A model generated the notes under the pieces. It was not told where the DNA came from. It worked only from the letters and a program-made list of their open reading frames with translations, and made no database searches. 64,000 bases of DNA, from NCBI GenBank assembly GCA_965197655.1, contig OZ240220.1, forward strand, positions 71,508 through 135,507. Direction: 5' to 3'. Shown here piece by piece: positions 61,295-63,465 of this stretch. The translations under genes and the position numbers were made by a program. The DNA comes from Dehalococcoidia bacterium. Its GTDB lineage: Bacteria; Chloroflexota; Dehalococcoidia; Lucifugimonadales; UBA3495. Positions within the stretch are counted from its first letter, which is position 1. Every line of letters starts with the position of its first letter.

Positions 61295-61831
61295 ATGAGT
61301 ATGGAACAGAGTGACATAAAATACCCCTTGGGGCGTCTTTCCCGTATTGAGGCGGAAACCTTTGGCGAGCCGGGCCGCCGGACCTTCCGGTTGCTGCTGG
61401 AGTCGGGCGCTGCCCGCTCTTTAGTGTGGCTGGAAAAGGAACAGCTTTTCCAGTTGGGCGCCGGCCTCAAGGAAGCAGTCCAGCGTCAAACCGATTCGGA
61501 GCGGGAACGGGGCAGTTCGCCGGAGGCGCCGGCCTGGAGCGGAGGAGAAACCACGATTGAGTTCAAGGCCCGCGTCCTTTCCGGGCGGCACGACCAGGAT
61601 ACCAATTCCTTCTACTTGCAGGCGCAGGCCGGCGAAGAGGAGGAATCGACAGAGGAACCGGCATCGGTGAGCTTCTGGATTACCGTTGACCAGGCGGCAG
61701 CCCTGGCCGAGGAAAGTCTGCGCATCTGCGCCGCCGGGCGTCCTCCCTGTTTCCTCTGCGGCCAGCCGATTAACCCGGAAGGCCACGTCTGCCCCCGGGC
61801 CAACGGCCACGCAGTTTTCGAAAGCGGCTAG
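61295..61831 (+). CDS. DUF3090 family protein
   Basis: [19 protein letters not shown]...LEKEQL and the C-terminal [27 protein letters not shown] are the family signatures as I recall them. ATG 61295 or 61301 is preferred to track TTG 61265. Confidence 0.8.
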   Translation: [178 protein letters not shown]

Positions 61832-61885
61832 GTACGCCTTCCCAACAGTAATCAGGGTTGTACAACGGTTGTAAAGGATACTCTG

Positions 61886-62590
61886 GTGGGACTAGAACAA
61901 ACCGGCCTCGACCTTCTCACTAATGGCGAATTCCTCTCTTGCGAACTCACTCCCATGGGCTCCAACTATACTTTCTTGGCCTCATTGCAACTGGGCGACC
62001 GGGAGTGCCAGGCCATCTACAAGCCCCGGGATGGCGAGGTTCCCTTGTGGGATTTTCCCCGGGGGACGTTATACAAGCGGGAGTATGGGGCCTATCTGTT
62101 GAGCCAGGTCCTGGGCTGGAACTTTATCCCGCTGACCATTGTCCGGGACGGGCCTTACGGCATTGGCTCGGTGCAGCAGTATGTTGACCACGACCCGCGC
62201 CTGAATTACTACACCCTGAGCGACGCCGACGCCGAAGAACTGCGGATGATTGCCTGCTTTGATATGGTGGCGAATAATACCGACCGCAAGGCCAACCATG
62301 TGTTGGTGGACGGCGATGGCAAGCTGTGGGGAATAGACCAGGGCTTGACCTTCCACTCCGACACTAAAATCCGCACTGTAATTTGGGACTTTGGCGGCGA
62401 ACCGATTCCTGACCGCTATCTGGACTCGCTGACCAAGCTGGCCCGTCAACTGCGCCGCCCGTCCGGGCTGCTCAAGGAACTGCTGGAACTGCTGCTCCCG
62501 GAAGAGGCGGAAGCCCTCGACAAGCGAATTGAATGGGTCCTGAGCGAGCGGGCCTATCCCGGTCTGCCGGGCCGTCGCCGTCGCCACTGA
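61886..62590 (+). CDS. SCO1664-family protein (PI3/4-kinase-like fold)
   Basis: GSNYTFLA...AIYKPRDGEVPLWDFPRGTLYKREYGAYLLSQVLGWNFIPLTIVRDGPYG. Catalytic-loop-like NNTDRKANHVL (about 62273-62305) and IDQG (62332-62343). GTG start. Confidence 0.8.
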   Translation: MGLEQTGLDLLTNGEFLSCELTPMGSNYTFLASLQLGDRECQAIYKPRDGEVPLWDFPRGTLYKREYGAYLLSQVLGWNFIPLTIVRDGPYGIGSVQQYVDHDPRLNYYTLSDADAEELRMIACFDMVANNTDRKANHVLVDGDGKLWGIDQGLTFHSDTKIRTVIWDFGGEPIPDRYLDSLTKLARQLRRPSGLLKELLELLLPEEAEALDKRIEWVLSERAYPGLPGRRRRH

Positions 62591-62618
62591 TTCCATTTCA
62601 CCAAGCCCGTTTGCCTTG

Positions 62619-62761
62619 CAGGGCTATCACAAAGTCCCTGCCAACTACAAAGCCCGCTCATGGTGAGCTTGTCGAATCATACTCCCTTACCAGGTGGCGC
62701 ATCCTTCGACAGGCTCAGGACGAGCGGGCAGAACACTCCCACTACTTTGTGCGAAGCCCTG
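62619..62761. mobile_element. MITE type 2 copy
   Basis: Termini CAGGGCTATCACAAAGTC / ACTTTGTGCGAAGCCCTG. The interior has CATGGTGAGCTTGTCGAATCA and CCTTCGACAGGCTCAGGACGAGCGG. Flanks are GTTTGCCTTG and GTTTGCCCCG (8/10 match). Confidence 0.8.
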
Positions 62762-62796
62762 GTTTGCCCCGGGAACACTCCGGTTTCCCCAGCCTC

Positions 62797-63465
62797 TTAT
62801 ACCTCCGGCCCCTCCGCCAGCAAGGACAGGTCAAAATCTTCCAGGGTTTCCAGGATGGTGTGGGCCTGACTTACGTCCAGGTTGCGGGTGTATTCGGTAC
62901 GCACCGCGATGGTGTAGGCGCCGGAGCCTACCGCCGCTGCAATCCCGATGGGCGAATCCTCGATGGCGATACACTGTTCCGGCGGCAGGCCCAGCCCGGC
63001 GGCGGCTTTGAGGTAAATGTCCGGTTCGGGCTTGCCTCGGGTCACGTCGTCCCCGCCCAGCACCAGGTCAAAGGCCCCCACCAGCCCAATTGCTTCCAGC
63101 TTCAAGTCCACCCACTGGTGCAGTGATGATGAGGCCACCGCCTTGGGCAGCCCGCGCTGAGAACAGATTTCCAGCAGGGCGCGGACGCCCGGCTGGGGCG
63201 CCAGTTCTTCCATCATCACCTGACGGACAATCTCGTCGTAGCGGCTGGTGTATATTGAGGCGGACAGGGGCAAGGCACGGTTAGCTTTGAGATACCGCCA
63301 GGTTTCGCCTATGGTCGTCCCGATGAGGAACCCTTCATTTTCCTTTTCGGAGACCAGCGGCACGCCCTCCTGTTCCAGCAGCCGGTTGATTGCGCCGAGG
63401 AAGAGGGGTTCGCTGTCCACCAGAACTCCGTCCATGTCGAAAATTATTGCCCGATAGCCGGTCAT
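62797..63465 (-). CDS. HAD-IA family hydrolase (beta-phosphoglucomutase/phosphatase-like)
   Basis: AIIFDMDGVLVDSE (DxDG motif I), ASSS (motif II) and KPEPDIYL...AIEDSPIGIAAAV (motifs III/IV). ATG 63465 is more likely than 63477. Confidence 0.85.
   Translation of the reverse strand: MTGYRAIIFDMDGVLVDSEPLFLGAINRLLEQEGVPLVSEKENEGFLIGTTIGETWRYLKANRALPLSASIYTSRYDEIVRQVMMEELAPQPGVRALLEICSQRGLPKAVASSSLHQWVDLKLEAIGLVGAFDLVLGGDDVTRGKPEPDIYLKAAAGLGLPPEQCIAIEDSPIGIAAAVGSGAYTIAVRTEYTRNLDVSQAHTILETLEDFDLSLLAEGPEV

What the first reader, a model, noticed from the sequence alone, without database searches (positions are those of the whole stretch)
61295..63465. DUF3090 plus SCO1664-type kinase-like pair of unknown function, here with a PEPCK-fold neighbour and a convergent HAD phosphatase
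- 61295-61831 has the DUF3090 signatures (FGEPGRRTF and C-terminal [25 protein letters not shown], a Cys/His cluster).
- 61886-62590 has the SCO1664-family signatures (YKPRDGEVPLWDFP..GTLYKRE..AYLLS..LGW) plus a PI3/4-kinase-like catalytic loop (TDRKANH) and IDQG.
- From memory, these two families are described as obligate neighbours in Actinobacteria and some Chloroflexi. They are usually accompanied by a histidine-phosphatase-type putative phosphomutase, and have no assigned function.
- In this window the phosphomutase slot is empty. The neighbours are instead a divergent PEPCK-fold P-loop protein upstream and a HAD-IA phosphatase/phosphomutase-type gene (62797-63465) convergent downstream, separated by a type-2 MITE.
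- A kinase-like protein, a Zn/Cys-His protein, a second nucleotide-dependent enzyme and a phosphatase together look like an uncharacterised small-molecule phosphorylation or ligation pathway.
- This is my best candidate for an undescribed system in the window.
Basis: partly seen in the sequence, partly recalled or inferred. Interest (0 to 1): 0.7.

Follow-up and report, generated by a model that had tools for sequence, protein, structure and literature searches.

The report
Known kinase-like gene pair, incidental neighbours
This is an ordinary copy of a widespread but still uncharacterised two-gene unit (a small lipid-kinase-like enzyme plus a zinc-type partner protein) in a Dehalococcoidia genome, and the two extra neighbouring genes proposed as a new four-gene pathway sit beside it only in close relatives.

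Summary
61295-61831 encodes a DUF3090 protein and 61886-62590 an SCO1664-family (TIGR03843) kinase-like protein. A divergent PEPCK-family gene lies upstream and a HAD-IA gene lies convergent downstream. No histidine-phosphatase gene is present in the window.

- Among the 80 best of 313 species genomes with the PEPCK-like gene, the pair is adjacent only in the 19 closest. In those, the whole block MBL-ComM-aroA-PEPCK-like-pair is syntenic, with the HAD gene in 18 of 19.
- The pair is adjacent in none of the other 61 genomes.
- Among 80 diverse metagenomic SCO1664 loci, none has a PEPCK-like gene and one has a HAD gene like the window's.
- The recurrent partners are DUF3090 (54 of 60 testable loci) and a TIGR03848 histidine phosphatase (33 of 39).

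New details found here:
- The kinase model and profile match type II PI 4-kinases and FAM20, with all core catalytic motifs retained.
- The DUF3090 model has no fold match in the PDB and carries an invariant CxxC...HxC cluster.
- The Dehalococcoidia clade lacks both the adjacent phosphatase and the family's near-universal C-terminal PWP tail.

The function remains unknown. My best guess is a two-subunit ATP-dependent kinase acting on a hydroxyl substrate.

The parts
61295..61831 (+). DUF3090 protein, 178 aa. The true start may be the ATG at 61301, because homologues begin 'ME'. It has two beta-sheet-plus-helix halves and a C-terminal Cys/His knuckle (C152, C155, H164, C166).
   Evidence: PF11290 scores 91.6 bits. 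TIGR03847 scores 83 bits, below its cutoff of 117. The AF2 model has pLDDT 82 and no PDB fold match. Invariant residues come from a diverse alignment.
61886..62590 (+). SCO1664-family minimal kinase, 234 aa, GTG start with AAGGA 8 nt upstream. Core motifs: GSNYTF loop, K46 (YKP), E66, catalytic D133-R134-K135, metal-binding D151 (IDQG). It ends ...PGRRRRH and lacks the family's PWP tail.
   Evidence: TIGR03843 scores 244.8 bits. The AF2 model has pLDDT 85 and pTM 0.87. The Foldseek top hits are PI4K type II alpha and beta. Invariant residues are and the tail comparison.
61265..61294 (+). Sigma-70-like promoter match (TTGCCA-18-TATGAT) in the 122-nt gap between the PEPCK-like gene and DUF3090. 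It fits the pair being its own transcription unit, possibly nearly leaderless.
   Evidence: Consensus scan, 10 of 12 positions matched. This is a consensus match only, not evidence of function.
58845..61172 (+). Neighbour, not part of the module. Divergent PEPCK-family protein, 775 aa, with P-loop GPSLHGKST and an NDD motif.
   Evidence: PF01293 scores 30.1 bits and NF006821 scores 134.6 bits against a cutoff of 369. Relatives occur in 313 species genomes. It is adjacent to the pair only in the 19 closest. Its own neighbourhood varies.
62797..63465 (-). Neighbour, not part of the module. Generic HAD-IA phosphatase-type gene, convergent with the pair.
   Evidence: HAD_2 scores 118.9 bits. TIGR01509 is above its cutoff, while the HxpB and beta-PGM models are below theirs.
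62652..62729 (.). Palindromic intergenic repeat element between the convergent SCO1664 and HAD genes.
   Evidence: Inverted repeat with 34-nt arms, 76% complementary. The core occurs 3 times in the window against 0 expected.

Best explanation
The locus is a standard copy of the conserved DUF3090/SCO1664 two-gene module in a Dehalococcoidia (Chloroflexota) genome.

The SCO1664 protein is a minimal ATP-dependent kinase that appears catalytically competent and belongs to the type II PI4-kinase/FAM20 branch. DUF3090 is its obligate partner. It has a fold with no solved relative and probably binds zinc through a CxxC...HxC knuckle.

I infer that the two proteins form a complex in which DUF3090 supplies substrate binding or specificity. 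I also infer that the kinase phosphorylates a hydroxyl group on a non-protein substrate, such as a sugar-, inositol- or lipid-headgroup-type metabolite. In most lineages the phosphate would later be removed by the co-encoded TIGR03848 histidine phosphatase. The Dehalococcoidia clade runs a reduced version without an adjacent phosphatase and without the kinase's PWP tail.

The PEPCK-like and HAD genes are unrelated neighbours retained by shallow synteny.

Shown: family membership, kinase fold and motifs, pair adjacency, and lack of association with the PEPCK-like and HAD genes. Inferred: complex formation, zinc binding, and substrate class. My rough split for the substrate is 0.4 small molecule or lipid, 0.3 DUF3090 itself or another protein, and the rest unknown.
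For: - Family scores are.
- The kinase core is invariant across 40 diverse representatives (N27, K46, E66, D133, R134, K135, D151, R163), and the window protein keeps every one.
- The fold matches PI4K2A and PI4K2B (E 2.5e-7, TMq 0.63), followed by FAM20A and HipA.
- The family profile reaches FAM20A and PI4K2B in the PDB, with the five core motifs aligned.
- Some family members pass Pfam's PI3_PI4_kinase threshold, up to 36 bits.
- DUF3090 lies directly upstream on the same strand in 54 of 60 loci, often with overlapping or few-nt gaps.
- Rare gene calls fuse DUF3090 and SCO1664.
- DUF3090 has an invariant Cys/His cluster plus invariant charged residues R29, E47, K48 and R149 that suggest a binding site. 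It has no invariant Ser/Thr/Tyr except a helix-cap T/S130.
- The phosphatase partner's closest named relatives are small-molecule phosphatases such as CobC, PspA and dPGM.
- The PEPCK-like and HAD genes are not associated with the pair.
- There are no anti-phage defence model hits.
Against: - No experiment exists for any family member. The literature lists both families as uncharacterised (PMC9425974, PMC13118837, PMC4255298).
- The PI4KII/FAM20 branch also contains true protein kinases, so the substrate class is not fixed by the fold.
- Complex formation and zinc binding were not modelled or measured.
- A kinase and a phosphatase in one operon fit a protein phospho-switch equally well.
- The Cys/His region of the DUF3090 model has only moderate confidence (pLDDT 68-80).
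Confidence: 0.6

Rival explanations
1. Protein phospho-switch. SCO1664 phosphorylates DUF3090, or a protein that DUF3090 recruits. The TIGR03848 histidine phosphatase erases the mark. The trio would be a regulatory module rather than a metabolic one.
For: - Kinase, small partner and phosphatase lie in one operon in 33 of 39 loci.
- The fold neighbours include the protein kinases FAM20C, HipA and RIO.
- From general knowledge, the histidine-phosphatase superfamily includes protein phosphatases.
- Rv2135c has only weak, unspecific activity on small phosphoesters, with Km around 10 mM (PMC3866925). From memory, Rv2135c is the M. tuberculosis member of the trio.
- A T/S at DUF3090 position 130 is conserved in 97% of sequences.
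Against: - DUF3090 has no strictly invariant Ser/Thr/Tyr. T/S130 sits at a strand-helix junction that aligns with E47 in the other half of the protein, which suggests a structural role.
- The Dehalococcoidia clade keeps the pair without an adjacent phosphatase.
- The phosphatase's nearest named relatives act on small molecules.
Confidence: 0.25
2. PEPCK-like, DUF3090, SCO1664 and HAD form one undescribed four-gene phosphorylation or ligation pathway, with HAD replacing the missing histidine phosphatase.
For: - The genes are adjacent in the window and in the 19 closest species genomes, with HAD present in 18 of 19.
- HAD is also convergent downstream of the pair in two more distant genomes, L085 and L086.
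- One further MAG, at 72-75% identity, keeps PEPCK-like and SCO1664 two locus tags apart.
Against: - In the 19 syntenic genomes aroA, ComM and an MBL gene are equally collinear, so this is general synteny.
- The pair is absent from the neighbourhood of the PEPCK-like gene in 61 of 61 more distant genomes.
- No PEPCK-like gene occurs in 80 diverse pair loci, and only one HAD does.
- HAD is absent from L087, L168, L169 and L170.
- HAD is convergent and separated from the pair by a repeat element.
- A promoter-like site and a hairpin lie between the PEPCK-like gene and DUF3090.
- The PEPCK-like gene has no stable neighbours of its own.
Confidence: 0.04
3. Thiol- or inositol-linked role. The kinase acts on an inositol-containing molecule such as GlcN-Ins, a mycothiol intermediate or phosphatidylinositol. 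This would fit its type II PI4K ancestry and the gene's linkage to mshC in Actinobacteria.
For: - SCO1664 is reported as invariably linked to mshC in Actinobacteria (PMC4255298).
- One representative gene call runs SCO1664 into a class-I Cys-tRNA-synthetase/MshC-type domain.
- The closest fold and profile matches phosphorylate an inositol ring.
- Inositol monophosphatase-family genes lie downstream in 2 loci.
Against: - In about 55 diverse loci no MshC-type gene is a recurrent neighbour (at most 1 upstream).
- Dehalococcoidia are not known to make mycothiol (my general knowledge, untested here).
- The mshC linkage could be actinobacterial synteny of the kind shown here for the PEPCK-like gene.
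Confidence: 0.15

Closest known systems
Actinobacterial three-gene set: TIGR03848 (MSMEG_4193 family histidine phosphatase), TIGR03847/DUF3090 and TIGR03843 (SCO1664 family). From memory, these are Rv2135c-Rv2134c-Rv2133c in M. tuberculosis.
   Same: The same two families in the same order and on the same strand, tightly spaced. The kinase catalytic residues and the DUF3090 Cys/His cluster are fully conserved.
   Different: There is no histidine phosphatase at the locus or anywhere in the 64-kb window. The kinase lacks the C-terminal PWP motif found in 77 of 80 diverse members. DUF3090 scores below the TIGR03847 cutoff. There is no mshC nearby. The function of the set is unknown in any organism.
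Eukaryotic type II phosphatidylinositol 4-kinases (PI4K2A and PI4K2B)
   Same: These are the best structural matches (E 2.5e-7, TMq 0.63). The G-loop, FKP lysine, hinge GSxQLFV, catalytic NxDR and IDxGL motifs all align.
   Different: Identity is only about 19%. The protein is about half the size and has no lipid-binding or palmitoylation inserts. It has DRK rather than DRG in the catalytic loop. The window protein is below the Pfam PI3_PI4_kinase threshold (19.8 against 27.1). The substrate is unknown.
FAM20 family secretory-pathway kinases (FAM20A, FAM20B, FAM20C)
   Same: FAM20A is the best sequence-profile hit in the PDB (E 5e-5) and a strong fold hit. From general knowledge, the family includes both a sugar (xylose) kinase and protein kinases, which shows how wide the substrate range of this branch is.
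   Different: Those are eukaryotic, secreted and much larger. They have no DUF3090-type partner.
HipA-type toxin kinases
   Same: They share the PI3/4-kinase-like fold and are small bacterial kinases encoded next to a partner protein (fold hits at E of about 1e-4).
   Different: The similarity is much weaker, with TMq 0.44-0.48. The partner is not a HipB-type DNA-binding protein. There is no toxin-antitoxin or defence signature. The module is a chromosomal core gene pair with stable synteny.

Membership tests
SCO1664 family (NCBIfam TIGR03843) | Whole-protein score above the curated cutoff | tested here: met
   244.8 bits against a cutoff of 172.4, covering profile positions 2-242 of 253.
SCO1664 family (NCBIfam TIGR03843) | Family-invariant kinase residues (Lys of YKP, Glu66, DRK catalytic loop, Asp of IDxG) | tested here: met
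   All 19 columns that are invariant across 40 diverse representatives are kept in the window protein.
SCO1664 family (NCBIfam TIGR03843) | C-terminal PWP(xx) tail. It is near-universal in the family, but it is my criterion, not a curated one. | tested here: not met
   The tail is present in 77 of 80 metagenomic members. The window protein and all 119 of its closest relatives end in ...PGRRRR(H/R).
DUF3090 (Pfam PF11290) | Score above the Pfam gathering threshold | tested here: met
   91.6 bits against a threshold of 27, covering profile positions 5-170 of 170.
DUF3090 subfamily (NCBIfam TIGR03847) | Score above the curated subfamily cutoff | tested here: not met
   83 bits against a cutoff of 117.25. 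The protein is a divergent Chloroflexota member of the Pfam family, outside the mainly actinobacterial subfamily model.
DUF3090 (Pfam PF11290) | CxxC...HxC putative metal-binding motif | tested here: met
   C152, C155 and C166 are invariant and H164 is present in 97% of sequences in a diverse alignment. All four are present in the window protein. The motif is noted in PMC9425974. Metal binding itself cannot be tested here.
Three-gene set with the MSMEG_4193 phosphatase (TIGR03848) | Histidine-phosphatase gene directly upstream of DUF3090 | tested here: not met
   None at the locus or in the window. None in 7 other Dehalococcoidia pair loci. Present in 33 of 39 diverse loci. Whether one is encoded elsewhere in this genome could not be tested.
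PI3/PI4-kinase catalytic domain superfamily (Pfam PF00454) | Pfam gathering score | tested here: not met
   19.8 bits against 27.1 for the window protein. Other family members pass, with 30.7-36.1 bits.
PI3/PI4-kinase catalytic domain superfamily (Pfam PF00454) | Kinase fold with aligned catalytic motifs | tested here: met
   Foldseek probability 1.00 to PI4K2A and PI4K2B. Motif-level profile alignment to PI4K2B.
ATP-dependent PEP carboxykinase (for the upstream neighbour) | Family model scores | tested here: inconclusive
   Pfam PF01293 scores 30.1 bits against 26.5, over the N-terminal and P-loop part only. NCBIfam NF006821 scores 134.6 bits against 369. No PDB sequence hit, even with a profile. 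Catalytic activity was not tested.
HAD-IA hydrolases (for the downstream neighbour) | Superfamily and subfamily model scores | tested here: met
   HAD_2 scores 118.9 bits and TIGR01509 scores 83.4 against 29.4. All specific equivalog models (HxpB, beta-PGM, PGP) are below their cutoffs.
Proposed four-gene system (PEPCK-like + DUF3090 + SCO1664 + HAD) | Co-occurrence of the extra genes with the pair beyond close relatives | tested here: not met
   The PEPCK-like gene is next to the pair in 19 of 80 genomes (all at 79% identity or more, with whole-block synteny) and in 0 of 61 otherwise. In 80 diverse pair loci there are 0 PEPCK-like genes and 1 HAD. HAD is absent in 4 of 6 more distant Dehalococcoidia loci.
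Anti-phage defence systems (PADLOC-DB) | Any model hit | tested here: not met
   No hits for any of the four proteins at E up to 0.01.

The most novel reading that the evidence does not exclude
The DUF3090/SCO1664 pair is a two-subunit kinase of a kind not yet described. It would combine a minimal prokaryotic relative of eukaryotic type II PI4-kinases and FAM20 with a zinc-binding subunit of a fold absent from the PDB. It would phosphorylate an inositol- or sugar-type metabolite or lipid headgroup in Actinobacteria and Chloroflexota. The Dehalococcoidia form, with no adjacent phosphatase and no PWP tail, would be a natural minimal version.
Probability: 0.3. Interest if true: 0.55.

Novelty: new member of a known kind. 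Interest (0 to 1): 0.3.

Why it matters
The pair is one of the broadly conserved 'signature' gene sets of Actinobacteria, and it is also abundant in Chloroflexota. There are 2848 clusters at 50% identity with E up to 0.001. No function has been assigned, so any function would fill a real annotation gap and might bear on mycothiol or inositol biology in mycobacteria.

This window adds no new system, because the proposed extra components are incidental. What this analysis adds:
- a specific structural placement of the kinase next to type II PI4K and FAM20;
- the observation that DUF3090 has no solved structural relative;
- the identification of a reduced Dehalococcoidia variant, which shows that the kinase-DUF3090 pair is the stable core and the phosphatase is dispensable at the locus.

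Tried and rejected
- Sequence search of the PDB with each of the three proteins, and with a PEPCK-like family profile, found nothing usable.
- Foldseek on the DUF3090 model found no significant match. The best hit had E 0.2 and TM below 0.25.
- I looked for gene fusions as functional clues. Only rare DUF3090+SCO1664 calls and one SCO1664+tRNA-synt_1e fragment turned up. These may be gene-calling artefacts and are consistent with simple adjacency.
- Pfam censuses of about 105 downstream and 119 upstream ORFs in diverse loci found no further recurrent partner. The maxima were 3 members downstream and a PhoR-like histidine kinase in 6 of 33 loci upstream.
- An internal-duplication test on DUF3090 by hhalign gave only weak support: probability 31%, P 5e-4 over 24 columns.
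- The RNA fold of the PEPCK-like/DUF3090 spacer is not more stable than shuffled sequence (z = -0.49). The terminator idea is therefore unsupported, and only a consensus promoter match remains.
- The defence-system reading is rejected because there are no PADLOC hits.
- Literature searches for DUF3090, SCO1664, Rv2133c/Rv2134c/Rv2135c and MSMEG_4192 found only screen listings. The one exception is a biochemical paper on the phosphatase Rv2135c. There is no functional study of the pair.
- My first ORF-clustering pass was contaminated by overlapping-frame ORFs in high-GC DNA. Those clusters (0, 2, 3 and 6) were discarded.
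Full report
**1. What is in the sequence**

- 61295-61831 (+) encodes a 178-aa DUF3090 protein. PF11290 scores 91.6 bits against a cutoff of 27. The narrower NCBIfam model TIGR03847 scores 83 bits, below its cutoff of 117.
- 61886-62590 (+) encodes a 234-aa SCO1664-family protein. TIGR03843 scores 244.8 bits against a cutoff of 172.4. It gives a sub-threshold PI3_PI4_kinase hit of 19.8 bits.
- 58845-61172 (+), upstream, encodes a 775-aa divergent PEPCK-family protein. PF01293 scores 30.1 bits over the N-terminal and P-loop part only. NF006821 scores 134.6 bits against a cutoff of 369.
- 62797-63465 (-), downstream and convergent, encodes a generic HAD-IA hydrolase. It is followed by modCBA.

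Further upstream lie aroA (-), a ComM/Mg-chelatase-like gene and a metallo-beta-lactamase-fold gene.

The 207-nt spacer between the SCO1664 and HAD genes carries a palindromic repeat with 34-nt arms at 62652-62729. Its core occurs three times in the window against none expected.

No histidine-phosphatase gene of the TIGR03848 type is present in the 64-kb window.

The organism is an uncultured Dehalococcoidia (Chloroflexota). Identical genes sit on ENA metagenome contigs, and the closest species genomes are Dehalococcoidia and SAR202 MAGs.

**2. Test of the proposed four-gene system**

*Starting from the PEPCK-like gene.* A profile of the PEPCK-like family found relatives in 313 species genomes. 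The best 80 were fetched with 10-kb flanks, and all are Dehalococcoidia, SAR202 or Chloroflexota.

- In the 19 closest genomes (PEPCK-like identity 79-88%), DUF3090 and SCO1664 follow the PEPCK-like gene. aroA, ComM and the MBL gene are also collinear in these genomes. HAD is present in 18 of 19. This is wholesale synteny among close relatives.
- In the other 61 genomes (65-69% identity), none has DUF3090 or SCO1664 within 10 kb, and none has an ortholog-level HAD; two loci carry a distant HAD paralog (38-40% identity) upstream.

*Starting from the pair.* Six more distant Dehalococcoidia pair loci (SCO1664 identity 66-70%) all lack the PEPCK-like gene.

- Two keep the convergent HAD together with modCBA (L085, L086).
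- Three have LarC downstream instead (L087, L168, L169).
- One has an unrelated 586-aa gene (L170).

*Starting from a family consensus.* A scan of metagenome contigs seeded with the SCO1664 family consensus returned 80 diverse loci with GC from 45% to 73%. None has a PEPCK-like gene and one has a HAD gene like the window's.

The PEPCK-like gene has no stable neighbours of its own. For example, a DHDPS-family gene is adjacent in only 4 of 61 genomes. That pattern fits a stand-alone housekeeping-type gene.

A sigma-70-like promoter match (61265-61294) lies in the spacer before DUF3090. HAD is on the opposite strand. The four-gene reading is therefore not supported, and the finding reduces to the two-gene module.

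**3. What does travel with the pair**

Sixty of the metagenomic loci have at least 600 nt of sequence upstream of SCO1664. In 54 of them DUF3090 lies directly upstream on the same strand. The gaps are often a few bases or overlap.

In 33 of the 39 loci with enough further sequence, the next gene upstream is a TIGR03848 (MSMEG_4193 family) histidine phosphatase. It scores 225.8 bits against a cutoff of 203.85.

Pfam censuses of the remaining upstream and downstream genes found nothing else recurrent.

- The most frequent upstream family is a PhoR-like histidine kinase, in 6 of 33 loci, sometimes with pst genes.
- No downstream family reaches more than 3 members of 105 scanned.

The literature treats both families as uncharacterised.

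- DUF3090 is listed as a putative metal-binding protein with a CxxC..HxC motif (PMC9425974).
- It also appears as a Streptomyces orphan family (PMC13118837).
- SCO1664 is described as an actinobacterial signature gene invariably linked to mshC (PMC4255298).

From memory, the M. tuberculosis phosphatase of the set is Rv2135c. It has weak acid-phosphatase activity, no phosphoglycerate-mutase activity, and no known physiological substrate (PMC3866925).

**4. Anatomy of the two proteins**

*SCO1664.*

- A search of 1.84 billion representative proteins found 2848 clusters at E up to 0.001. Nearly all are stand-alone proteins of about 240-260 aa.
- Across 40 diverse representatives at 35-47% identity, the invariant columns are N27, K46, P47, L54, D56, F57, L62, E66, P82, Q97, D126, D133, R134, K135, D151, F156, R163, R214 and P225. 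The window protein keeps all of them.
- The AlphaFold2 model is confident, with pLDDT 85 and pTM 0.87.
- Its best PDB matches are human type II PI 4-kinases alpha and beta (E 2.5e-7, TMq 0.63). FAM20A, HipA, RIO kinases and Vps34 follow.
- The family profile also reaches FAM20A (E 5e-5) and PI4K2B (E 6e-4) by sequence alone.
- The motifs align one to one: GSNYTF with GSSGSYF, YKP with FKPK, GSxQLFV with GSFQLFVE, NNADRK with RNTDRG, and IDHGLTF with IDNGLAF.
- I conclude it is a minimal kinase of the PI4KII/FAM20 branch that appears catalytically competent.
- One clade-specific difference stands out. 77 of 80 diverse members end in a conserved ...PWPxx tail. The window protein and all 119 of its nearest relatives end ...PGRRRR(H/R).

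*DUF3090.*

- The model (pLDDT 82) shows two beta-sheet-plus-helix halves followed by a C-terminal knuckle.
- It has no significant match in the PDB. The best hit has E 0.2 and TM below 0.25.
- In a diverse alignment (24-55% identity) the invariant residues are G24, G27, R29, F31, E47, K48, L54, G148, R149, C152, C155 and C166. H164, Q133 and N170 are present in 97% of sequences.
- The only conserved hydroxyl residue is T/S130, at 97%.
- T/S130 sits at a strand-helix junction that aligns weakly with E47 of the first half (hhalign P 5e-4). This suggests an internal duplication and a structural role for that residue.
- Rare gene calls fuse DUF3090 to SCO1664, and one runs SCO1664 into an MshC/CysRS-type domain. 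These are consistent with tight adjacency, but they may be artefacts.

**5. How it most likely works**

*Shown.* The kinase has a complete catalytic apparatus. It has a near-obligate, co-oriented and tightly spaced partner with a Cys/His cluster and a conserved charged surface. In most lineages a histidine phosphatase is co-encoded.

*Inferred.* The two proteins act together as one enzyme. DUF3090 would be a zinc-stabilised specificity or substrate-presenting subunit. The kinase would transfer phosphate from ATP to a hydroxyl group.

I favour a non-protein substrate (a sugar, an inositol or a lipid headgroup) at about 0.4, for three reasons.

- The closest relatives include inositol and xylose kinases.
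- The partner phosphatase's nearest named relatives (CobC, PspA, dPGM) act on small molecules.
- DUF3090 has no invariant Ser/Thr/Tyr.

In such a scheme the phosphatase would act as a late dephosphorylating step. From general knowledge, this is what happens in the cobalamin, glucosylglycerate and mycothiol pathways.

The main rival, at about 0.25-0.3, is a kinase/substrate/phosphatase protein switch with DUF3090 as the target.

An inositol- or mycothiol-linked role is a sub-hypothesis. It is supported by the actinobacterial mshC linkage, but not by the diverse loci examined here.

The Dehalococcoidia variant shows that the kinase-DUF3090 pair is the stable core. The phosphatase need not be encoded alongside it. 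Whether it is encoded elsewhere in these genomes could not be checked.

**6. Comparison with known systems and verdict**

The locus is a member of the known, uncharacterised DUF3090/SCO1664 module. Public MAG annotations already name the close homologues 'SCO1664 family protein' and 'DUF3090 family protein'.

It differs from the typical three-gene form in three ways.

- It lacks the adjacent TIGR03848 phosphatase.
- It lacks the PWP tail.
- Its DUF3090 falls below the actinobacteria-centred TIGR03847 cutoff.

It is not a defence system. It is not a four-gene pathway.

Novelty: a new member of a known kind, arguably a reduced variant. Interest is modest, at 0.3. The family as a whole is a real open question, but this window adds no new component. 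The feature that made it look special was shallow synteny.

Noticed in passing
window 58845-61172 (+); loci L005-L084, L171: The 775-aa PEPCK-like protein belongs to a very conserved family. Identity is 65-88% across Dehalococcoidia, there are about 280 invariant columns among 17 sequences, and relatives occur in 313 species genomes. It matches PEPCK models only in the N-terminal and P-loop part. It has no PDB relative by sequence or profile and no stable gene neighbours. It may be a divergent PEPCK or a PEPCK-fold enzyme with another substrate.
   Followed up: partly
window 62652-62729; also 10288-10313 (-) and 29765-29790 (+): A palindromic repeat element with core CCTTCGACAGGCTCAGGACGAGCGGG occurs at least three times in the window. 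Related translated motifs (e.g. FLPAQERR) appear in spurious ORFs near 56.7-58.7 kb. This suggests a family of REP/MITE-like intergenic elements in this genome.
   Followed up: partly
window 55151-56674 (ComM-like) relative to 61295-62590; loci L085-L087, L168-L170: A ComM/Mg-chelatase-like gene lies upstream of the DUF3090/SCO1664 pair in every Dehalococcoidia locus examined. Different insertions sit between them: aroA plus PEPCK-like, an ABC transporter, toxin-antitoxin-like genes, or nothing. It looks like an old synteny anchor rather than a functional link.
   Followed up: partly
window 62570-62590 (C-terminus of the SCO1664 protein): The Dehalococcoidia clade replaces the family's near-universal C-terminal ...RxxPWPxx tail with an Arg-rich end (...PGRRRRH). 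The same clade lacks the adjacent histidine phosphatase. L154, the one metagenomic locus with the same tail, also lacks it. The tail might be a docking motif for the phosphatase. However, some loci have the PWP tail and no adjacent phosphatase (L099, L119).
   Followed up: partly
metagenome loci such as L108 and L101 (upstream of the trio): In 6-7 of the diverse loci, a PhoR/PnpS-like sensor histidine kinase lies just upstream of the phosphatase-DUF3090-SCO1664 trio. In 4-5 loci pstS/pstA phosphate-transporter genes do. This may be lineage-specific synteny or a hint of a link to phosphate metabolism.
   Followed up: no
proteins P0506, P0484, P0490 (representative library): Rare gene calls fuse DUF3090 to SCO1664. 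One runs SCO1664 into a class-I Cys-tRNA-synthetase/MshC-type catalytic domain. It is not known whether these are real fusions or frameshift and assembly artefacts.
   Followed up: no
window 61265-61301: A promoter-like TTGCCA-18-TATGAT ends at 61294, immediately before the ATG codons at 61295 and 61301. There is no obvious Shine-Dalgarno sequence, and homologues start 'ME' (61301). The DUF3090 mRNA may be leaderless or nearly so.
   Followed up: no
window 61295-61831 (DUF3090 residues 8-66 against 84-147): The two halves of DUF3090 have the same beta-sheet-then-helix layout. The conserved W-x-E-K-x-Q and W-x-T-x-x-Q junctions align weakly (hhalign P 5e-4). This hints at an ancient internal duplication.
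   Followed up: partly
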